From: Candidatus Omnitrophota bacterium
GTDB lineage: Bacteria; Omnitrophota; Gorgyraeia; Zapsychrales; Fredricksoniimonadaceae
Reading direction: 5' to 3'
DNA length: 64,000 bases
Assembly (NCBI GenBank): GCA_903860135.1
Contig: CAIOPG010000008.1
Span: forward strand, 64,127 to 128,126
Positions 2,835 through 63,964 of this stretch are shown piece after piece. The notes under the pieces are model-generated. The model had not been told where the DNA came from. It ran no database searches and saw only the letters and a program-made list of their open reading frames with translations. A program made the translations under genes and the position numbers. Numbering within the stretch: the stretch's first letter is position 1; the number at the start of each line of letters is the position of its first letter.

Positions 2835-4097
2835 TTAAAGTTTATAAAGGGCAAGCCCTGACAGCGCCTTGGGATAAAAATAGGTGGTCTTGGGCGGCAT
2901 CTTCTCGCCATTCAAAGCGATCACGCGCAACTGGTCAATGCGCACCGGATTGAGGATAAAAGCCGCCTCGGCCTGGCCGTTATCCACCGCCGTGAAGCAG
3001 GCATCCATGTCCTTGTTGCAATACGTGATATCTTCGGACTTGATGTCCAGCTTGTCAAAGACAAAGGCCTTGAGGATCAACGAATCCAGGCAACGGTAAT
3101 CATCCGAACCTTCCTTGATGAACTCATTGATCTGGCTTTTGTTCTTCAGGCGCAGGAGCTGTATCCCTTTACGGGTATATAGCCCGAACGCATGCTCGTT
3201 GCGCCCCGCCTTGGCCAGCATGACCGCGAGGTCTTCCTTCTTCTTGATGCTGTCGATGCGAAAAAGCGTTTCCAGGAACCCGATGTCCCGAGGAAATGTT
3301 TTGATGATGCGATGGATGGGGAAAATCTGCAGTTCACGCGAATCGATATTCGTGAAATACGTCATCACATAATTCCAGGGCTCGTCGCCGGTGGCGTCGG
3401 GAGTCTTCTCGAGCATCAGCTCGCGGTAGCGCCGGGATACTTCATACCGGTGATGGCCGTCAGCGATAAAAAGGTTCTGATTCTCAAAAACATCAGCCAC
3501 CTGCCCGATCAGGTCCGGATCATCGAGGCGCCAAACCATGTTGCGCGTGCCGTCATCTTCGACCACATCCACAAACGGCTTGGTCATCGCCACCTTGCGC
3601 TGAAAGATCCCCTCAACCTTTTTCTGGCTATCGGAAAAACAGACAAAGATCGGGCTGCACGCCGCCTGGAGCGCTGTCCACAGCTTGAAGCGGTCTTCTT
3701 TGGCACCCGCGTGCGTTTTCTCATGCGGATGGATGCGCGTCTTTTCATTATCGATCTTCATGACCGCCAGGAACCCCATGCGGCTGTGGCGTTCACCGAC
3801 GATCTTGTATTCCTGGCGCGTATAATAAATGCACGGCTTCGCATCCTGGACCAGGACACCCGCCTTGAGCCATTTTTCAAACGTCTCGGCCGCCTTGGCG
3901 TAACGGGCATCATCTTCCCCGTGCCGGGCATCCGCCTTGGCGAGCATCACATGGATAAAATTAAAAGGACTGCGCTTCTTGAGGGCCGCTTCCTGTTCCG
4001 GGGATATCACATCATACGGCGGGCAAACGATCTTCGCCATGTCGCCGACTTTATCCGTGTTATACACAATACCATTAAAAGGTTTTATCACTGACAT
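2835..4097 (-). CDS. DUF1015 family protein
   Basis: N-terminus MSVIKPFNGIVYNTDKVGD...PPYDVISPEQ is typical of DUF1015. An AAGGAAGGAA SD lies 9 nt before the ATG at 4097; the track ORF starts 9 nt further upstream. Confidence 0.7.
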   Translation of the reverse strand: MSVIKPFNGIVYNTDKVGDMAKIVCPPYDVISPEQEAALKKRSPFNFIHVMLAKADARHGEDDARYAKAAETFEKWLKAGVLVQDAKPCIYYTRQEYKIVGERHSRMGFLAVMKIDNEKTRIHPHEKTHAGAKEDRFKLWTALQAACSPIFVCFSDSQKKVEGIFQRKVAMTKPFVDVVEDDGTRNMVWRLDDPDLIGQVADVFENQNLFIADGHHRYEVSRRYRELMLEKTPDATGDEPWNYVMTYFTNIDSRELQIFPIHRIIKTFPRDIGFLETLFRIDSIKKKEDLAVMLAKAGRNEHAFGLYTRKGIQLLRLKNKSQINEFIKEGSDDYRCLDSLILKAFVFDKLDIKSEDITYCNKDMDACFTAVDNGQAEAAFILNPVRIDQLRVIALNGEKMPPKTTYFYPKALSGLALYKL

Positions 4098-4106
4098 CCG
4101 CCGCAT

Positions 4107-4194
4107 TTCCTTCCTTGATTTTGATATTCAACCCCGTCAAACATCCATTTAGTATACAAAGAAAATCTGATTTGACAAGAAAAGGTTACACGAA
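4107..4194 (-). promoter_or_regulatory. sigma70-type promoter module (copy 1 of an ~88 bp duplicated element) driving the DUF1015 gene
   Basis: The minus strand reads TTGTCA-N16-TATACT (-35 at 4178..4173, -10 at 4156..4151), followed by AAGGAAGGAA. A near-identical copy lies at 5506..5593. Confidence 0.6.
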
Positions 4195-4466
4195 ACAGTG
4201 GGAACGAAACAGGTACAGGGAGAACGTAACTCTTATTGGTAAACCTCAGAACGTTTCGCGATCTTAGTCATGACGACAGGCCAAGTTCCTTTTCGATCCT
4301 GGCAGAAGGGATGCGGGGCGTTTTACGCGAAGCTTCTATCTCTTTCCAAAACTTTGGATCAGCGTATTCCATGGATTCAATCAGATCTTCCCAAACATTC
4401 TGAGGTAAAAGAACCCCTTTTGCCTGGCCTTTACTGTTGACCAGCCAGATTATTCTTGTGAGCGGG

Positions 4467-4820
4467 TTAACTTAACGGCAGGCCTAATAAATCGCGCAAC
4501 CTTGAATCTATTTCTTTCTGCATGGAAACACTAACATCTCCCAAAAAGCGCGCCGTGCTTGATTGTAACAGGCAAAAGATCTTATCTGTCTTGACCAAAG
4601 ATGCCACATGCAACCCGGTCCTGCTAAAATCAACATGCGTCGAAGAAATCAGGAGGTCAACTGACCGCGGCGAATCAATCACTGAACTAATGGCGATAAA
4701 TAGCGCGTCTTGACTTGTGCGATTGTATTGTTCAGAAGATATAACGAGGGCAGGACGAACTTTATTCCCAATCAAATCAGAAAAAGGATATTTAATCAGT
4801 ACAATATCCCCTTTCTTCAC
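4467..4820 (-). CDS. mazF: type II toxin MazF/PemK family endoribonuclease
   Basis: 117 aa, MKKGDIVLIKYPFSDLIGNKVRPALVIS matches the PemK/MazF N-terminal SH3-like barrel. There is a 4-nt overlap with the upstream ORF. Confidence 0.8.
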   Translation of the reverse strand: MKKGDIVLIKYPFSDLIGNKVRPALVISSEQYNRTSQDALFIAISSVIDSPRSVDLLISSTHVDFSRTGLHVASLVKTDKIFCLLQSSTARFLGDVSVSMQKEIDSRLRDLLGLPLS

Positions 4821-5053
4821 GACAAAGCCCTGCCATCTTCAAGCGTATAAATATCTTCAGCCGGATTGTCGAGGAATGAAAACATCCCTGTTTGAAAGGG
4901 AAGCCGCATTAATTCTTGGTCAGAAATTCCACCTTGAACTAAAGTCGGGGCAAAGACAAGGGTGCGATTAAAGAAAAAGGTCGCTTCAGCCGCGATCTCT
5001 GGTTTCTGATTTATTTTATAGCCAAGCGTCTCATGATCAATTGTTTGTGTCAT
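4817..5053 (-). CDS. hypothetical protein, candidate cognate antitoxin of MazF (non-canonical)
   Basis: 78 aa ORF translationally coupled to mazF (ATGA overlap). It has no AbrB/MazE or RHH signature. Confidence 0.4.
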   Translation of the reverse strand: MTQTIDHETLGYKINQKPEIAAEATFFFNRTLVFAPTLVQGGISDQELMRLPFQTGMFSFLDNPAEDIYTLEDGRALS

Positions 5054-5056
5054 CGC

Positions 5057-5455
5057 CTACACCCCCGATTGTGAAATTTGAAACCGTCTGGCGATGATGG
5101 GCTCGCTATCACATAATACTTCAAATCTATATTCACCGTAATCAGGAAAAGGAACATTGATCATTTCAAAATTAAATTCAACAATTTGCTTCGGGCTCTG
5201 AAAATTAATCTGCCCTTCCATCCCAAACAAATCAGTTTCTTTGCCTACTTGCAAACAGCGCAACCGCATCGTGTAGACCCCCGTGCCCTCTGTTAAGGAA
5301 AGAAATACATTTAAACGAGGATGCGCACAGGGCACCGTTGACGTTGTAATATTATTGAAAAGCCCCACAAGAGACTTCTTCCCCGTCGTCTTGTCGTCAA
5401 TAACAACATCACAAATCGCCATCACTAAAGCCATTGGCTTAGGTTTTTTAATCAT
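5057..5455 (-). CDS. hypothetical protein, first gene of the three-gene MazF module
   Basis: The first ATG gives MIKKPKPMALVMAICDVV... (about 133 aa). The track ORF is extended to a TTG at 5539 inside the promoter repeat. The stop lies 3 nt from the next gene. Confidence 0.4.
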   Translation of the reverse strand: MIKKPKPMALVMAICDVVIDDKTTGKKSLVGLFNNITTSTVPCAHPRLNVFLSLTEGTGVYTMRLRCLQVGKETDLFGMEGQINFQSPKQIVEFNFEMINVPFPDYGEYRFEVLCDSEPIIARRFQISQSGV

Positions 5456-5505
5456 ATGATGAGCACGCTCAGGATAATGGTCAAAAGAAACTTGGGGCGA
5501 AAATA

Positions 5506-5593
5506 CTTCCTTCTTGATTTTGATATTCAACCCTGTCAAACATCCATTTAGTATACAAAGAAAACCTGATTTGACAAGAAAAGGTTACACGAA
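5506..5593 (-). promoter_or_regulatory. sigma70-type promoter module (copy 2 of the ~88 bp duplicated element)
   Basis: Identical -35 TTGTCA (5577..5572), 16-nt spacer and -10 TATACT (5555..5550) as copy 1, with 2 substitutions plus a 1-bp indel across the element. Confidence 0.55.
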
Positions 5594-5611
5594 GAAGGGC
5601 AAGAAAGAAAC

Positions 5612-5944
5612 TCAACGCAAGCGCCGCGCGGCATAGGTGAAGGGCAAGAAATACTTCCGCCAGGAGGCATCGGTGGAACCAAACTCGTTTGAGCCCATAA
5701 AGAAATCAACAACCGCCTCGCGCACACGCGCCACTTCCTTAAGGCGCGGCAGGCCCGATACGCTGTCCAATGTCAGATCCAGAAGCTCCAGGGCCCTTTC
5801 CACGGCCCTGCGGCTGTAAGCGGGATTCTGCTTCACCTGCCAGTTGAGCGCGCGCTCCACCTCACTGCCGATATTGGCCATTTGCGCACACAGCGTCAAT
5901 TCCTTCCAACGCCCGGCAGCCAGATCCTTGTGCTGATAACTCAC
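5612..5944 (-). CDS. hypothetical helical protein
   Basis: 110 aa ORF with GC and codon usage like the host and no recognisable motif. Confidence 0.35.
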   Translation of the reverse strand: MSYQHKDLAAGRWKELTLCAQMANIGSEVERALNWQVKQNPAYSRRAVERALELLDLTLDSVSGLPRLKEVARVREAVVDFFMGSNEFGSTDASWRKYFLPFTYAARRLR

Positions 5945-6190
5945 GCTGTCACCCGCTGCATGACAAGACCCATGACAAAATCCCCAAACATCCCGGCCGC
6001 CATCTGGCGAAGTTCCACGCGGGAAATTGTATCCGTTATTATTTTCAATTTTTCCATCTCCCTGCCATTATTCAACCCCAAAAACCAGTGCTTACTATAA
6101 CGCCTGCCATAATCCGGGTCAATCTTGATCTTTTCCTCATGTTATGGGAAACTACCACCTTTTATTCACTTGGCAAAGATAATCAAGAAC

Positions 6191-6216
6191 AAAAGCCCGT
6201 CATAAGACGGGCTTTT
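6191..6216. terminator. bidirectional rho-independent terminator
   Basis: AAAAGCCCGTC-ataa-GACGGGCTTTT is a perfect 7-bp GC stem flanked by A and T runs, immediately 3' of the giant gene. Confidence 0.8.
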
Positions 6217-6238
6217 GAAGGATAACATGAAACGGTAC

Positions 6239-9200
6239 TTATGACGGCAACAGGCTCTTGACCGGGGTGATGTTAAGGATCACCGGCCGAAACCCGCTCA
6301 CGCCATCAGCCTTGATCCGCGCCAACTCCGCCGGATCCACCGTAACCTTCATCCCCGCGCCCGTGCGCTCGACCTTGAGGTTCAGCTGAGCCGGGTCGAA
6401 GTCGATACCACCGGTGGCGGAATTGTCACGAACCTCACGCATCAAACTTTGCCGTTCCGCAGTCATCTTAACATGATTCAATGTCCACTGAACATCTCGA
6501 CTATTCACACTTGTTTTTCCATCTTGTCCCAGGAAATTCTTCATTGTTATCGGCTCAACACCCGACTCTCTACTGGCGGGAATAATTAGCCTAGGATTCG
6601 TCACAGCCATTTCATCAAACCTCCCATGAATAATGTCGGCAAACGACGTTCCTTTATAATCCGCGATAAGAGATCTGTTAACAAACCTCGGCCCCCCTGT
6701 ATGCACTAATGAAATAATGATTTCATTTTCATACAACTCTAATTTGCTAACCTTTTCCCATCCATTTGAAGAAATATCCCAAACAGTCGGCTCTTCGTTA
6801 CCAACCACCACCCCCTGCAATGCAACATTAGCAATTCCAGGTGCAGCCGTTAAAGGCATATTAATATCACTCTCTTGAAGTATAAAATCCTTAAGATGTA
6901 GGTTATCTGGGACAATAAACTTACTATTTTGAAGATAAGAATTTCCATCCAAAATTAATTTAACACGCTTTGTGGGATCTGGATTTCTAATCGTCACATT
7001 TTCTAAGATCACATGCGCCCCGTCAGGAACAACAAGCTCTATGGTTTCATCAATTTGCACACGGCCTATCCTCGTTTCTTTACCGGGCATACTTTTTGCT
7101 TTATCATGAAAACCTCTAATATACCGATCAACATTCCCATCATCCTGAAATCCATTAACTTGACCAACAAGAATTTTATCTTCCTTCACAGAAACAGGCT
7201 TTGTCACAGCTGTATAAAATTTCTGTTCCTCCGCTGATAACGTTGCAAAGAAAGCAGGATTATACTGTTTCCCAACTGTTAAATCAAAATAACTTCCAGG
7301 GAATATACGTGCTGACTGTCCATTCATTACCCCTTCCTTATACGCAACCTGCTGCTGATCAAAAGCATCCCCAGTGTAAACAAGCAAAAACGCATTAGGA
7401 ATAATGCTGTTTGTATCAATCTTCTTTAACATAAAAAGCATTTGAACAGGCGTAGGTTTTTCCTGAAATAGTTTTTGCACTCCCGTATTTGAATCTGCAA
7501 AGTTTTCCCCCAAATCATGCCATTTATTCTTTTTAATACGTGCAATAGCAGCAGCCAAAGCAGGTGATTTCTTAATGACTGCGTTTTCCGTAATTCCGTC
7601 TTCTTTACCGTCATTGGCTTGAACCAACTCATCCAAAGCTTGAAAAACAGCTTGTTTATCTTGCGGCGCGAAAACCTGTCCAGGAACGCCAAGAATAGTT
7701 ACCCCGAAATTTCCATCATTCTTAAGTTCTGATATTTGCCGAGATCCAACCTTGATACCACCCACAAAATTATATGTTCCATCAGATGCCGCCCAAACCA
7801 GTCGACGCTGAGCACCTTCACCAAAATGAAGCATTTGTGAACGAACGGCCAGGATTGTTTTCATCACTTCCAAATAATATCTTGACCCATTAGCCGTTGG
7901 GAAATTACCGATATGCCCATTTTTTACTGTCGGCGGACCGCCACGATCTTTCGTGCCACCATCTGTAATAATATTGACATTAGCATTTTTAAAAAATTCA
8001 TATCCCATTGTATTCTGCACCGCCTGCACCGCAGATGTCATCCCGCATCCATCCCCCCTCAAAACCTTAACAGACTCTTCAACACTCAAAAATATCTGCA
8101 CATACCCATTGTATTGTTGAGATATTTGTTTCATAAACTCAAGGTACGCAATATGCGAATTCTCAGAAGCTCTTTTAATATTAGTTACAAAATACTGCAC
8201 GCCTAAAACACCACTCTTTAGTGCCGCCTGAAAAACCGCATCATTACGATCAGATTTTTCCTGAGTCTCAAAAGAAAACGGTTCTTTAACTTTTAATTTC
8301 CTAGCTTCTTCCTCTGTTATTCCATTTTCAATATATTGACCAACAACATCCTGAACATCACTCACGCTCATTGTTGTTAAATCAATAGGCTTGGGAGGAT
8401 TCTCCGTCTTTGCTAAAAAAAGCGCTGGCTTTGTCTCTTTGGGGCCATCAAGCTCATTAACACGGGCTTCTTCATAAATCCTATCAATTGCCGAAATATC
8501 ATGCCGCTCTGCCGCTTGTATAATTTGCTGAGAATGACGATTATTTTTTTCATAAAACATCTTTATCTTCTCGATCTTTACCAACTGCTCTTTTTGTCCC
8601 GCCACATCATTATCATCCCAGCGATCAATTAAATGCCCAAATCCATTTTCAGCTGCAAAAAATAATGTTGCTCTTTCCGGCGCATCCACCTGAGAACGCT
8701 CAAAATGAACTTTCGCTCTTTCTGGCAAATTAGAGCTTTTAACAAACTCAACCTGCTCTTGTGGCGTCGCAGCCCTGTCAAATGTCGTCTGCGGCCTCGC
8801 TTCAGGCTTCCCTGGCTTCTGCGTAATAGCAACCTTAACACTACTCAAATCATGACCCGCATCAGCCGCATCCCGAACCTGTACCGGCAATTTTTCAGCC
8901 CTGTCAACCTTTTGAGCATTCTCCCGAACCTTTGCCGCTAGTTCCGTACCCTGAAACCCCCCCGAAAAATACTTGCGCGGGAGGGTTTCCTGGGTGACGG
9001 GGTCTACGTCTTCTTTGATGTAATTGAACACGCCTTCTTTATAGGCGGCGATGTAGCGTTGGTAGATCTTTTCTTTGTCGGTCTTGTCGAGGATATCGAC
9101 GCCGTCGACTTTGTTCTTGTCGGCATAAACCTGGCCGAGGAGGCTGTCTTTAAGGTTGTTCTTGTACCACATGGCCAGCACCATCGCCTGGTAAACCTGG

Positions 9201-10021
9201 CGCAGGAGGGCGAAGTTTTTGCCGGTGTTGATCTCTTTCTCGATTTCGGGGATCACGACCTGGCGCATGACGTCGCTCGCTGATCGGGCGGCGTCGCGGA
9301 TGTCGGCATTGTTCATCTGGCCCATGCCGGCGGCCGGATCCTTCATGTTCTGCTTGAGCGCCAGGTAATCTTCTTCCATCATGACCTTCATGCGCGTCGC
9401 ACCGAGGATCGCGGTATCACCCACCTCATAAACCTTGGCCTGATCGGGCATGATCCAGACTTTATTGAAGGTATTGGTCGGCAGGTCAGCGGTACCGAGC
9501 ACCTGGGTAACCCTGGCGTACACGCGTGACCAGAATTCCTTGCCCAGGTCTTTTTCAGGATAAATGAGTGAAGCGGTCAGCTGTTTGAGCACATAGTCCT
9601 GCGCCAGAAGGTCGCGGCCCATTTCAGTCTGGCCAAAGGCTTCAGGCACAATGCGGTCGTGTTCGTAGGGCGACAGGTTGACCCATAGGTCTTTTTCAGG
9701 GATGGTGAGCGAGGCAAGGAAATATTTAACGAGTTTTTCGGTTTCGGTCTTGATGAGCGCCTGATTGGCATCTGTATCGCCGCTGTCGACGATAAAATCA
9801 AACACCAGGGGCTGGTCAGGGTACACCTTGACCGCGCGCAGAGACACCGGCATATACGCGGCGCTCGGCAGAACCATGGCACCGGGCCTGGGCAGGTCCA
9901 TCACGCCCTGGGCATAACCGGCCGGCAGAAGGCCTGTCAGCATAAAGCAAACCACGACCACTGCGGCTACCGTTTTTCTTAATCCCCGACCACAAGACGT
10001 TCTGTCAAAATGACCCAACAT
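6239..10021 (-). CDS. giant secreted protein (1260 aa): signal peptide, conserved N-terminal module, AT-rich variable core, conserved ~55 aa C-terminal domain
   Basis: Signal-peptide-like N-terminus AAVVVVCFMLTGLLPAGYAQG. The N-terminal ~230 aa are homologous to ORF 23135..23902, with about 85-90% nucleotide identity over a ~160 bp stretch (9550-9700 vs 23500-23660). The C-terminal GGIDFDPAQLNL...GFRPVILNITPVKSL is shared with ORFs 22730..23050 and 63125..63964. GC is ~42% across 6480-8750 versus ~60% in the flanks. Confidence 0.7.
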   Translation of the reverse strand: MLGHFDRTSCGRGLRKTVAAVVVVCFMLTGLLPAGYAQGVMDLPRPGAMVLPSAAYMPVSLRAVKVYPDQPLVFDFIVDSGDTDANQALIKTETEKLVKYFLASLTIPEKDLWVNLSPYEHDRIVPEAFGQTEMGRDLLAQDYVLKQLTASLIYPEKDLGKEFWSRVYARVTQVLGTADLPTNTFNKVWIMPDQAKVYEVGDTAILGATRMKVMMEEDYLALKQNMKDPAAGMGQMNNADIRDAARSASDVMRQVVIPEIEKEINTGKNFALLRQVYQAMVLAMWYKNNLKDSLLGQVYADKNKVDGVDILDKTDKEKIYQRYIAAYKEGVFNYIKEDVDPVTQETLPRKYFSGGFQGTELAAKVRENAQKVDRAEKLPVQVRDAADAGHDLSSVKVAITQKPGKPEARPQTTFDRAATPQEQVEFVKSSNLPERAKVHFERSQVDAPERATLFFAAENGFGHLIDRWDDNDVAGQKEQLVKIEKIKMFYEKNNRHSQQIIQAAERHDISAIDRIYEEARVNELDGPKETKPALFLAKTENPPKPIDLTTMSVSDVQDVVGQYIENGITEEEARKLKVKEPFSFETQEKSDRNDAVFQAALKSGVLGVQYFVTNIKRASENSHIAYLEFMKQISQQYNGYVQIFLSVEESVKVLRGDGCGMTSAVQAVQNTMGYEFFKNANVNIITDGGTKDRGGPPTVKNGHIGNFPTANGSRYYLEVMKTILAVRSQMLHFGEGAQRRLVWAASDGTYNFVGGIKVGSRQISELKNDGNFGVTILGVPGQVFAPQDKQAVFQALDELVQANDGKEDGITENAVIKKSPALAAAIARIKKNKWHDLGENFADSNTGVQKLFQEKPTPVQMLFMLKKIDTNSIIPNAFLLVYTGDAFDQQQVAYKEGVMNGQSARIFPGSYFDLTVGKQYNPAFFATLSAEEQKFYTAVTKPVSVKEDKILVGQVNGFQDDGNVDRYIRGFHDKAKSMPGKETRIGRVQIDETIELVVPDGAHVILENVTIRNPDPTKRVKLILDGNSYLQNSKFIVPDNLHLKDFILQESDINMPLTAAPGIANVALQGVVVGNEEPTVWDISSNGWEKVSKLELYENEIIISLVHTGGPRFVNRSLIADYKGTSFADIIHGRFDEMAVTNPRLIIPASRESGVEPITMKNFLGQDGKTSVNSRDVQWTLNHVKMTAERQSLMREVRDNSATGGIDFDPAQLNLKVERTGAGMKVTVDPAELARIKADGVSGFRPVILNITPVKSLLPS

Positions 10022-23134: not shown

Positions 23135-23902
23135 TCAATAAATAATCGTAACGCAGGACTGCCCTCCCCACGCTAGCGCGGGGGCGGGTGATAATTGGTT
23201 GATGCCCTGGGTCGCTTGCGTATCCGATAAAAAAGGGCGGGTCATGGCCCCGCCCCTACGTGAGAATTCATCATTTTCTGCGGTGGCCTTATAATCGGAC
23301 TCCAACATTACCTTTAACCTGGATTCAACGACGTAGGCGGCGTCTTGGTGTTCGTAGACGGTGGCTTTCTCGGGGGTGATCCAGACTTTGTTGAAGGTGG
23401 CGACGGGGATATCCGTGGTGCCGTAGCGTTTTAAGGCTTCGGCGTAGACTTTAGCCCAGAATTCCTTGCCGACTTTATCGTCGGGATAAATGACGGATGC
23501 GGTAATTTGTTTAAGAATATAATCCTGCGCCAAAAGGTCGCGGCCCATTTCGGTCTGGCCAAAGGCTTCGGGCACAATGCGGTCTTTTTCATACGGACTT
23601 AAATTCACCCACAGGTCTTTCTCGGGAACCGTGAGCGAGGCGAGAAAATATTTGATCAGGCGCAGGGAATCCCCTTCAGCCTTCGCATCCCCTTTATCCA
23701 AGATAAAATCAAAGCGGAAAGGGTCGTTCCGATACACCTTGATGCCCTTTAAAAGCGGCGGGGCAAAGACCGGGCTCAAAGCCAGGCGCGTACCCGGCGC
23801 GGGCAATGTCACCTGCGCATAAAGCCGTGCATCCGGCATGATCAATGCCGTGATCAGGATGCTGGCGATAAACTTATATAGTTTTACCCTGAAATTATAC
23901 AA
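23135..23902 (-). CDS. truncated paralog of the giant protein (signal peptide + conserved N-terminal module only)
   Basis: A TTG start at 23902 with a GAGGG SD gives a signal peptide KLYKFIASILITALIM. There is about 70% aa identity to residues ~60-280 of the giant protein, after which it diverges and stops. Confidence 0.5.
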   Translation of the reverse strand: MYNFRVKLYKFIASILITALIMPDARLYAQVTLPAPGTRLALSPVFAPPLLKGIKVYRNDPFRFDFILDKGDAKAEGDSLRLIKYFLASLTVPEKDLWVNLSPYEKDRIVPEAFGQTEMGRDLLAQDYILKQITASVIYPDDKVGKEFWAKVYAEALKRYGTTDIPVATFNKVWITPEKATVYEHQDAAYVVESRLKVMLESDYKATAENDEFSRRGGAMTRPFLSDTQATQGINQLSPAPALAWGGQSCVTIIY

Positions 23903-63124: not shown

Positions 63125-63964
63125 TTACGGCGTTATCAGGCCCTGCAACAGGCTGGCGCCGACAGGCTGTATGCTCAGGATCTCGGGCACAAGGCCGTCG
63201 ATCCGTATATTCTCCAGATTCTGCTGGCTCACCGGCAAAACCACCCCGGCCCCATCACGCTTGATCTGCATGTCAAGGTTCGACTGCGCAAAGTCGATAC
63301 CACCTTTTAAATCTTGACTATTATCATGGTTAGTCGTGAATTTGTTATGTTTATCCTGCTCAATAAGTTGTTTCGCTGTGTTACCTTTCAACATTCCCTC
63401 AATATAGGGCCTGACACGAAAATATTCATTCGAGTCTTTTTCAAAAATGGCCTTAAGTGCCACACCCACACGATAATTCAGACTATCTATCTGAACTGTT
63501 GGAAAATGATCCAAGAATGGCGTCATGCTGATAACATGCAACGCCATGGCGCGTCCATTCCCACGCTTAAAATCCTCTTCCATTGCTGTATTAAAACGAG
63601 CAAATATCCCATTTAAATAATTTTCAGTTATCGCGCTCGCCTGATCGACCTTAAAAGAAATAACAACAGGATTCATTTGAAAGTCTGGATTGCCTATAAC
63701 TTCTAAACTCTTAACATCCCAATTCATGGCATCAGCAAATATTTTCGTATAGTTTCTTACGTCGCCATTATCGACAAATGGCATCGATACCGTAATAACC
63801 TGTCGATCATTTGATGTTATTTTTATCCTTTTATAGATCGTTGCATTGATATTGTTAATATTCCTTTCATTTTCTAAGCTATGCTTTAGAATATAGATCG
63901 TTGCATTGATATTGTTAATATTCCTTTCATTTTCTAAGCTATGCTTTAGAATAAAAGCATGCAA
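63125..63964 (-). CDS. protein with AT-rich N-terminal region and conserved GC-rich C-terminal domain shared with the giant protein; possibly 5'-incomplete at window edge
   Basis: The C-terminus GGIDFAQSNLDMQIKRDGAGVV...GLVPEILSIQPVGASL aligns with the C-terminus of ORF 6239..10021. GC drops sharply at ~63310. It contains an in-frame 60-bp tandem duplication. Confidence 0.5.
   Translation of the reverse strand: MHAFILKHSLENERNINNINATIYILKHSLENERNINNINATIYKRIKITSNDRQVITVSMPFVDNGDVRNYTKIFADAMNWDVKSLEVIGNPDFQMNPVVISFKVDQASAITENYLNGIFARFNTAMEEDFKRGNGRAMALHVISMTPFLDHFPTVQIDSLNYRVGVALKAIFEKDSNEYFRVRPYIEGMLKGNTAKQLIEQDKHNKFTTNHDNSQDLKGGIDFAQSNLDMQIKRDGAGVVLPVSQQNLENIRIDGLVPEILSIQPVGASLLQGLITP
63834..63953. 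repeat. perfect 60-bp tandem duplication (2 copies) inside a CDS
   Basis: TAGATCGTTGCATTGATATTGTTAATATTCCTTTCATTTTCTAAGCTATGCTTTAGAATA x2, in-frame, which duplicates the peptide ILKHSLENERNINNINATIY. Confidence 0.9.

What the first reader, a model, noticed from the sequence alone, without database searches (positions are those of the whole stretch)
4107..5593. An ~88 bp promoter-plus-RBS module duplicated 1.4 kb apart in front of unrelated genes
4107-4194 and 5506-5593 differ by 2 substitutions plus a 1-bp indel. Both carry TTGTCA-N16-TATACT on the minus strand plus an AAGGAAG SD. Copy 1 drives the DUF1015 gene with correct SD spacing. Copy 2 sits before the first gene of the MazF module, but the SD is not followed by a start codon at a usable distance; the first ATG is ~90 nt downstream. 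A portable promoter cassette copied between operons suggests either recent promoter capture by the TA module or a short mobile regulatory element.
Basis: seen in the sequence. Interest (0 to 1): 0.6.

Follow-up and report, generated by a model that had tools for sequence, protein, structure and literature searches.

The report
Duplicated host promoter flanking toxin-antitoxin islet
The 88-bp repeat is the bacterium's own DUF1015 gene promoter, copied once so that it brackets a strain-specific 1.4-kb insert carrying an acquired toxin-antitoxin module; it is not a mobile promoter element.

Summary
In detail: 4107-4194 and 5506-5593 are the only two copies in the 64-kb window. They differ by 2 substitutions and 1 indel.

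The 88-mer is not a portable element. Its -35/-10 core is conserved, as a single copy, directly upstream of DUF1015 in eleven related Omnitrophota genomes.

A strain of the same species (L027, 98.4% nt identity) has orf110, the same 18-nt spacer, one 88-mer and then DUF1015. The window therefore carries a 1399-bp indel bracketed by the duplicated promoter.

The insert holds:
- a low-GC, horizontally acquired three-gene module (DUF6941, a 78-aa ORF, MazF/PemK);
- the decayed remains of a RelE-like toxin-antitoxin pair, which is intact at this locus in a sister species (L008).

The upstream copy is the only recognisable promoter for the acquired module. The downstream copy keeps DUF1015 expressed.

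One 1.3-kb metagenome contig (L030) carries the circularly permuted junction with a hybrid repeat. That fits excision or tandem amplification through the repeats, but a low-coverage misassembly is not excluded.

This is promoter duplication or capture at a toxin-antitoxin insertion hot spot: tidy, but of a known kind.

The parts
5506..5593 (-). Promoter copy 2 (upstream, derived copy). -35 TTGTCA at 5577-5572, -10 TATACT at 5555-5550, orphan SD AAGGAAG at 5512-5506. It abuts orphan orf110 through an 18-nt spacer (5594-5611) and leads into the DUF6941 gene.
4107..4194 (-). Promoter copy 1 (native position). -35 at 4178-4173, -10 at 4156-4151, SD AAGGAAGGAA at 4116-4107, 9 nt before the DUF1015 ATG at 4097. 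It is identical to the single copy in the empty allele L027.
4195..5593 (-). The 1399-bp segment absent from strain L027 of the same species. It equals the cassette, the TA remnant, the spacer and one promoter copy. Because of the repeat, 4107-5505 is an equivalent description.
5057..5455 (-). DUF6941 gene (132 aa, true start MIKKPKP...), first gene of the acquired module. The predicted fold is an all-beta sandwich.
4817..5053 (-). 78-aa ORF, the presumed antitoxin. Its stop overlaps the MazF start. The C-terminal motif is conserved in the middle gene of homologous modules. It matches no family.
4467..4820 (-). MazF/PemK-family toxin gene (117 aa).
   Evidence: (PF02452, E 2.6e-12)
4268..4465 (-). 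Pseudogene: the C-terminal 65 codons of the antitoxin of a resident RelE-like TA pair (94% aa identity to L008 4225-4419). The promoter and the first ~27 codons are replaced by the cassette.
4233..4271 (-). Stub of the RelE/ParE-family toxin (MTKIAKRSEVYQ*). An in-frame internal deletion removed about codons 2-72 of the 83-aa gene, which is intact in L008.
2835..4097 (-). DUF1015 gene (420 aa from the second ATG), the gene natively served by the promoter. accD follows at 2805-1897.
5612..5944 (-). orf110 (no family match), the conserved left flank of the insertion site. Its protein is identical in the empty allele L027.

Best explanation
The 88-mer is the native sigma-70-type promoter, 5'UTR and ribosome-binding site of the DUF1015-accD operon of this Omnitrophota lineage.

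The slot just upstream of this promoter is a recurrent landing place for toxin-antitoxin (TA) modules. In this strain, a rearrangement at that slot produced the order: orf110, promoter copy 2, the DUF6941/78-aa/MazF cassette, the truncated antitoxin and gutted toxin of an older RelE-like pair, promoter copy 1, DUF1015.

Inferred function:
- Copy 2 supplies transcription for the acquired cassette through an ~88-nt leader whose duplicated SD is unused. The cassette arrived without a recognisable promoter.
- Copy 1 preserves normal DUF1015 expression. DUF1015 may also receive read-through from copy 2, because no terminator is predicted between the copies.

Inferred origin: one illegitimate join plus one homologous join between alleles of this locus that carried different TA cargo (homology-facilitated illegitimate recombination, or displacement). 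The alternative is a local duplication of the promoter.

The two direct repeats make the 1.4-kb unit excisable and re-insertable by ordinary homologous recombination. This would explain the empty allele in the same species and, if it is real, the permuted-junction contig.

Shown: the repeat, its identity as the native promoter, the indel polymorphism, the cassette's foreign composition, and the TA remnant.
Inferred: promoter activity, which promoter drives what, and the recombination pathway.
For: 1. Native promoter. The core AACCTTT(T/C)CTTGTCAAATC...TTTGTATACT lies 45-75 nt upstream of DUF1015 in L002, L003, L005, L008, L010, L011, L013 and others. blastn of the 88-mer against 285 kb of window plus loci finds one copy per relative and two only in the occupied allele.

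2. Empty allele. L027 has an identical orf110 protein and 98.3-98.5% nt identity on both flanks. It reads orf110 stop, the same 18-nt spacer, one 88-mer identical to copy 1, then DUF1015. No cassette protein variant at 90% identity or more exists in the protein collection beyond the exact sequences, and the exact MazF and 78-aa sequences were recorded only in samples other than L027's.

3. Older resident TA. L008/L019 (DUF1015 91% aa identical) carry an intact 92-aa antitoxin and an 83-aa RelE/ParE-like toxin between orf110 and the single promoter. The toxin matches PDB 2khe at E 3.5e-5 and Pfam ParE_toxin at E 7.8e-4, below the cut-off. Window 4465-4233 aligns to it with the antitoxin's N-terminus missing and the toxin deleted internally.

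4. The cassette is foreign and modular.
   - GC is 40-46% against 51-59% in the flanks.
   - DUF6941 / small ORF / PemK is a conserved gene trio in unrelated contexts: next to a tRNA in L020 and next to a Y1 transposase in L021/L022.
   - The nearest homologue is only 63% identical.

5. The only strong promoter match upstream of the cassette is copy 2. The cassette's own leader gives only a 9/12 match that ends at the ATG.

6. Hot spot. Different TA types occupy the same slot in other species: AbiEii in L011 and BrnT/CopG-like in L016. None of these has flanking repeats.

7. L030 carries remnant-spacer, a hybrid 88-mer and then the cassette. Together with the other three junctions this completes an attB/attP/attL/attR-like set.

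8. A published analogue exists: an incoming toxin/immunity module displaces the resident one through a homologous anchor plus an illegitimate end, leaving orphans downstream (PMC5361080).
Against: - No transcription data exist. Promoter calls are consensus matches in a phylum whose promoters are uncharacterised.
- The recombination pathway cannot be reconstructed uniquely. At least three two- or three-step histories fit.
- The cassette donor was not found.
- Copy 2 differs from the empty-allele promoter at 3 of 88 positions, while the adjacent 480 bp of orf110 differ at 2. Copy 2 may therefore be imported or fast-evolving rather than a simple local duplicate.
- L030 is a single short contig. 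Its two ends flank the same 74-nt gap, which a linear occupied allele with a coverage gap and a misjoin in the repeat would also produce.
- The rest of this genome could not be searched for more copies. The genome is absent from the GTDB-representative and JGI collections.
Confidence: 0.78

Rival explanations
1. The 1.4-kb unit is a small site-specific integrative element. The 88-mers are attL and attR, L027 is attB and L030 is attP. A recombinase encoded elsewhere moves it.
For: All four junction types exist. The element-side and chromosome-side variants at site 2 and in the SD indel segregate as expected for attP versus attB. The unit is low in GC.
Against: - The unit and its neighbours (accD, MFS, dnaK operon) contain no integrase or transposase.
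- The unit includes a remnant of a TA pair that is chromosomal at this very locus in a sister species. Its ends are therefore defined by the duplicated host promoter, not by element termini.
- An 88-bp identity block is what RecA needs, not what a tyrosine or serine recombinase needs.
- Other TA islets at this slot have no such repeats.
- L030 may be a misassembly.
Confidence: 0.07
2. The 88-mer is a short mobile regulatory element (MITE-like or Correia-like) that carries a promoter and has inserted in front of two genes.
For: Two near-identical copies lie in front of unrelated genes. A different hairpin-rich ~130-bp insert sits in the same 5'UTR in L008, so small insertions do occur here.
Against: - There are no terminal inverted repeats, no hairpin (z +0.3 to +0.5) and no target-site duplication.
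- The core is orthologously conserved upstream of DUF1015 across genomes whose DUF1015 is 75-93% aa identical, one copy each.
- The only metagenome hits are DUF1015-linked.
- There is no third copy in the 64-kb window.
Confidence: 0.02
3. The two copies are independent members of a regulon: similar promoters kept alike by selection for a common regulator, not by duplication.
For: The promoter hexamers are intact in both copies. A short palindrome AAATCAGATTT sits in the spacer of copy 1.
Against: - Identity of 97% runs through the 5'UTR, which is not conserved even in the closest other species (L002 and L003).
- The boundaries are sharp.
- The empty allele shows that the second copy arrived together with the insert.
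- The substitution in copy 2 breaks the palindrome.
Confidence: 0.02
4. The duplication is an assembly artefact: a chimeric contig that joins two loci through a shared promoter.
For: The source is a metagenome assembly, and repeats are classic misjoin points.
Against: - The repeat (88 bp; longest exact block about 30 nt) is shorter than the final k of 141.
- The same structure comes from two assemblers and several samples at 100% identity.
- Both outer junctions exist in relatives: orf110-promoter in L003/L027 and remnant-promoter-DUF1015 in L008.
Confidence: 0.02

Closest known systems
Displacement of toxin/immunity modules by homology-facilitated illegitimate recombination (T6SS effector-immunity arrays in Vibrio cholerae, Rhs/CDI orphan arrays; PMC5361080)
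   Same: An incoming toxin-containing module lands at a fixed locus, replaces the front of the resident module and pushes its remains downstream. A conserved sequence shared by donor and recipient acts as the homologous anchor.
   Different: Here the shared sequence is a housekeeping gene's promoter and it ends up duplicated. The cargo is a type II-like MazF module. The mechanism was not tested.
Genomic islets flanked by direct repeats that regenerate the target (for example tRNA-gene-targeting integrative elements, attL/attR)
   Same: There are flanking direct repeats, a presence/absence polymorphism with a single-copy empty site, and restoration of the interrupted function by the duplicated copy. 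A possible circular junction exists.
   Different: There is no integrase. The repeat is a promoter rather than a tRNA 3' end. The unit contains formerly chromosomal DNA.
Promoter capture or duplication by local rearrangement
   Same: A promoterless or poorly expressed gene set gains expression by acquiring a copy of a resident promoter.
   Different: The usual examples arise by tandem amplification or IS-borne promoters. Here a discrete 88-bp copy brackets the cargo.
Promoter-bearing MITEs (Correia/CREE, ERIC-like elements)
   Same: A short sequence with promoter activity, repeated in front of different genes.
   Different: It lacks inverted termini, target duplications, multicopy distribution and non-orthologous locations.

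Membership tests
MITE / short mobile regulatory element | Terminal inverted repeats or a stable hairpin | tested here: not met
   The only inverted match is the GTATAC palindrome inside the -10. DNA folds give z +0.3 to +0.5.
MITE / short mobile regulatory element | Many dispersed copies in non-orthologous contexts | tested here: not met
   There are two copies in the 64-kb window and one per relative, always upstream of DUF1015. The metagenome scan gave 2 hits, both DUF1015-linked. The viral and GTDB scans gave 0. The remainder of this genome was not available.
Site-specific integrative element (att sites) | Direct repeats at both ends and a single-copy empty site in a related genome | tested here: met
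Site-specific integrative element (att sites) | Integrase or recombinase gene within or next to the element | tested here: not met
   The ORFs in 4195-5593 are DUF6941, a 78-aa ORF, MazF and TA remnants. The neighbours are housekeeping genes.
Site-specific integrative element (att sites) | Circular (attP) junction | tested here: inconclusive
   L030 has the permuted junction with a hybrid repeat. It is one 1325-bp contig, and tandem duplication or a low-coverage misjoin would give the same sequence.
Integron gene cassette / attC | Imperfect palindromic attC able to fold as single-stranded DNA | tested here: not met
   Neither strand has significant structure, and there are no inverted arms.
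Sigma-70-type promoter | -35 and -10 hexamers at 16-18 nt spacing, conserved in orthologous position | tested here: met
   TTGTCA-N16-TATACT matches 10 of 12 positions. CTTG(T/G)CAAA and TGTATACT are conserved in relatives.
Sigma-70-type promoter | Transcription initiates downstream of the -10 | not testable with these tools
   No RNA data are available.
Type II MazEF/PemIK toxin-antitoxin | PemK/MazF-fold toxin | tested here: met
   PF02452 at E 2.6e-12, 47.4 bits against a cut-off of 23.1. MazF6 structures match at E ~1e-3.
Type II MazEF/PemIK toxin-antitoxin | Recognisable antitoxin gene immediately upstream | tested here: inconclusive
   A 78-aa ORF overlaps the toxin start, and homologous modules have a conserved counterpart. 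It has no Pfam, NCBIfam or PADLOC match.
RelE/ParE toxin-antitoxin (the remnant) | Homology to a complete RelE/ParE-family pair | tested here: met
   The window remnant is 94% aa identical to the L008 antitoxin. The L008 toxin matches PDB 2khe (E 3.5e-5), Rv2866 and RelE3. Pfam ParE_toxin is below its cut-off. In the window both genes are truncated, so the pair is non-functional.

The most novel reading that the evidence does not exclude
The 1.4-kb unit behaves as an integrase-free mobile cassette. It carries a copy of a conserved housekeeping promoter that serves both as its expression signal and as its homologous integration site. It would excise as a circle (L030) and re-enter empty alleles (L027-type) by RecA-mediated recombination, so that TA cargo spreads through the population by hitch-hiking on a host promoter. 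A secondary novelty: DUF6941 / small ORF / MazF would be an undescribed three-component toxin-antitoxin family.
Probability: 0.15. Interest if true: 0.55.

Novelty: new member of a known kind. Interest (0 to 1): 0.3.

Why it matters
This is a clean natural example, in an uncultivated phylum, of how an acquired toxin-antitoxin module becomes wired into the host. It sits behind a duplicated copy of a housekeeping promoter, while the second copy protects expression of the gene it displaced.

The comparison also shows that the slot upstream of the DUF1015 promoter is a TA insertion hot spot across related Omnitrophota. The direct repeats make the islet reversible.

It does not reveal a new class of regulatory or mobile element.

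Tried and rejected
- Rfam scan of 3500-6500 at E<=1: only a chance rnk-leader hit outside the repeat.
- RNA folds of both 5'UTRs: no structure, z -0.3 and +1.2.
- DNA folds and an inverted-repeat search of the 88-mer: nothing. This rejects the attC and MITE readings.
- A small leader peptide starting at the ATGs just after the -10: not conserved in L002 or L003, so dropped (sequence inspection).
- Whole-collection scans:
  - a 22-mer in GTDB representative genomes gave 0 hits;
  - the degenerate promoter pattern gave 2 hits in JGI metagenomes, both DUF1015 orthologues, and 0 in viral contigs;
  - the DUF6941 profile gave 0 hits in viral contigs.
- Search for the cassette donor: the nearest DUF6941 is 63% identical. 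Exact-protein look-ups of MazF, the 78-aa ORF and DUF6941 returned only the same allele plus L030 and L031.
- NCBIfam and PADLOC gave no hits for the cassette, orf110 or orf46. There is no literature on DUF6941.
- SNP distribution between the window and L027, examined for recombination tracts: uninformative.
- Flanking repeats around TA islets in L008, L011 and L016: none.

Full report
**Observation**

All genes in this part of the window are on the minus strand. 4114-4194 and 5513-5593 are 98% identical without gaps, and a gapped alignment extends the match to 4107-4194 and 5506-5593. Identity stops sharply on both sides. The differences are:
- a substitution at 4166/5565, in the promoter spacer;
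- a substitution at 4135/5534, in the 5'UTR;
- a 1-nt deletion in the Shine-Dalgarno run of copy 2.

A 41-nt core with up to three mismatches occurs exactly twice in 64 kb, against 0 expected. A whole-window repeat search finds no third copy. Both copies carry TTGTCA-N16-TATACT.

Two details need correction:
- DUF1015 starts at the second ATG (4097), as in all 420-aa orthologues. This is 9 nt after AAGGAAGGAA.
- DUF6941 starts at ATG 5455 (alignment of homologues). This is 50 nt after the unused SD of copy 2 and about 88 nt after the predicted start site.

**Gene order, in the direction of transcription**

| Feature | Coordinates |
|---|---|
| 1260-aa protein gene | 10021-6239 |
| strong terminator | 6217-6190 |
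| orf46 / orf110, overlapping pair with no family match | 6081-5612 |
| 18-nt spacer | 5611-5594 |
| promoter copy 2 | 5593-5506 |
| DUF6941 | 5455-5057 |
| 78-aa ORF | 5053-4817 |
| MazF/PemK | 4820-4467 |
| open frame without a start codon | 4465-4268 |
| 12-codon stub | 4271-4233 |
| 38-nt spacer | 4232-4195 |
| promoter copy 1 | 4194-4107 |
| DUF1015 | 4097-2835 |
| accD | 2805-1897 |

**What the 88-mer is**

The organism is an Omnitrophota MAG. In relatives whose DUF1015 is 75-93% identical, the gene is always preceded by a single copy of the same core, AACCTTT(T/C)CTTGTCAAATC...TTTGTATACT, followed by a variable 5'UTR and a GGAAGG-type SD. A blastn of the 88-mer against the window and all fetched loci (285 kb) finds one copy per relative and two only in this allele. 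A degenerate pattern covering all observed variants hit only two of 241 million metagenome records, both upstream of DUF1015 orthologues, and nothing in viral contigs.

The 88-mer has no inverted termini and no fold. It has no Rfam match and no UTR structure. It is therefore the native promoter, leader and RBS of DUF1015, not a mobile or structured element.

**The repeats bracket an indel**

A contig from another sample, L027, encodes an identical orf110 protein and is 98.3-98.5% identical in DNA on both flanks. It reads orf110 stop, the same 18-nt spacer, one 88-mer identical to copy 1, then DUF1015. The window therefore carries a 1399-bp segment that this strain of the same species lacks.

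The cassette proteins have no variants at 90% identity or more anywhere in the protein collection beyond the exact sequences. The exact MazF and 78-aa sequences were recorded only in samples other than L027's. This argues that L027 is a true empty allele rather than a collapsed repeat. The occupied allele was recovered at 100% identity by a different assembler (L028/L029, Logan) and in several ENA assemblies.

**What is inside the segment**

1. A three-gene module: DUF6941, a 78-aa ORF and MazF. Its GC content is 40-46%, against 51-59% in the flanking genes. The same trio occurs in unrelated contexts elsewhere, next to a tRNA gene in L020 and next to a Y1 transposase in L021/L022, and the middle ORF has a conserved C-terminal motif. 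The nearest homologue is only 63% identical, so the donor is unknown.
2. The wreck of an older TA pair. In the sister species L008/L019, a complete 92-aa antitoxin and an 83-aa RelE/ParE-family toxin lie between orf110 and the single promoter. The toxin matches PDB 2khe at E 3.5e-5 and Pfam ParE_toxin at E 7.8e-4, below the cut-off. The window retains the last 65 codons of that antitoxin (94% aa identity) and a toxin reduced to Met plus its last 11 codons by an in-frame deletion. The cassette ends at the MazF stop codon and replaces the old pair's promoter and the first ~27 antitoxin codons.

**Hot spot**

The same slot holds other TA types in other species: an AbiEii module in L011 and a BrnT/CopG-like pair in L016. 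It is empty in L002, L005, L010 and L014. L003 has orf110 directly followed by the promoter. None of these islets has flanking repeats. The promoter duplication is thus a one-off of this allele, not a general insertion signature.

**How it most likely works**

This section is inference. The only strong promoter match upstream of the cassette is copy 2. The cassette's own 50-nt leader offers only a 9/12 match whose -10 abuts the ATG. Copy 2 therefore most likely transcribes the acquired module, with a long leader carrying a vestigial SD. Copy 1 keeps DUF1015-accD under its normal signal. With no terminator predicted between the copies, DUF1015 may also receive read-through.

None of the three changes in copy 2 touches a hexamer. 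At two of the three sites, copy 1 has the state seen in relatives.

**Origin**

Several short histories fit:
- a cassette-bearing fragment from an allele that still had the RelE-like pair recombined into an empty allele, homologously in the promoter/DUF1015 region and illegitimately at the other end;
- an orf110-promoter-cassette fragment displaced the front of the resident pair;
- the promoter was duplicated locally.

The first two are the displacement/HFIR scheme proposed for T6SS effector-immunity arrays (PMC5361080). The SNP pattern between the window and L027 does not discriminate between them.

**The permuted contig**

L030 (1325 bp, ENA ERZ27313295) consists of window 4278-4195, then an 88-mer, then window 5505-4353. 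The remnant and spacer thus lie upstream of the promoter copy that precedes DUF6941. Its 88-mer is a hybrid, with the copy-1 state at site 1 and copy-2 states at site 2 and in the SD.

With the window's two junctions and L027, this completes a set of four junctions equivalent to attL, attR, attB and attP. That is what recombination between the two direct repeats would produce, either as a circle or, between sister chromosomes, as a tandem array. I rate it as suggestive only, for three reasons:
- it is one short contig;
- its two ends flank the same 74-nt gap;
- a low-coverage assembly of the linear allele could join the two loci through the shared block of the repeat.

No recombinase is encoded in or near the unit. 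The unit also contains formerly chromosomal DNA, so homologous rather than site-specific recombination is the better reading.

**Verdict**

The feature is a duplicated native promoter bracketing a strain-specific TA islet at an insertion hot spot. It is a well-resolved instance of known processes, with a modest chance that the repeats make the islet a recombination-driven, integrase-free mobile unit.

The main untested points are promoter activity, the reality of the circular or tandem form, and the absence of further copies in the unsampled remainder of the genome.

Noticed in passing
window 4195-6238; L008 3996-4760; L011 3531-4827; L016 2080-2735: The slot between the large protein gene and the DUF1015 promoter carries a different toxin-antitoxin type in each of four related species: MazF trio, RelE-like, AbiEii and BrnT/CopG-like. 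It is empty in others, so it is a TA insertion hot spot.
   Followed up: partly
window 4467-5455; L020 226-1030; L021 1362-2480: DUF6941 / small ORF / PemK is a conserved three-gene module in several unrelated contigs. DUF6941 models as a confident all-beta sandwich (pLDDT 92) with only generic structural matches and no literature. It may be an undescribed three-component TA system.
   Followed up: partly
L030 1-1325 (ENA ERZ27313295 k141_476319): This contig is a circular permutation of the 1399-bp unit with a hybrid 88-mer. It could be an excised circle, a tandem duplication or a low-coverage misjoin. L031 (623 bp) ends within 7 nt of the same point, at window 4346 against 4353.
   Followed up: partly
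L008 4826-4955 (also in L019): A ~130-bp hairpin-rich insert (DNA fold z -5.2, inverted arms GATTTTGCAGTAGCACCATTTT / AAAATGGTGCGGATGCAAAATC) sits inside the DUF1015 5'UTR of the sister species. It is absent from L003 and is MITE/REP-like.
   Followed up: partly
window 5612-6081: orf46 and orf110 overlap by 4 nt and match no Pfam, NCBIfam or PADLOC family. orf110 is present in some relatives (L003, L008, L027) and absent in others (L002, L005). In L027 the upstream partner is called as 82 aa. This may be another small accessory pair.
   Followed up: no
window 6140-7900; L027 1-2805: Homology between the window and the same-species strain L027 ends at window 6140. L027 has a 2216-aa CofD-domain protein where the window has a 1260-aa protein with no family match. 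Part of the window gene (about 6450-7800) is only 38-42% GC. This is a second strain-variable region next to the hot spot.
   Followed up: no
window 63832-63951: A perfect tandem duplication of a 60-bp AT-rich unit lies near the end of the window (family D5).
   Followed up: no
window 9515-9727 and 23441-23653: A 213-nt direct repeat at 78% identity lies 13.9 kb apart. One copy is inside the 1260-aa gene, which suggests a paralogous large protein (family D1).
   Followed up: no
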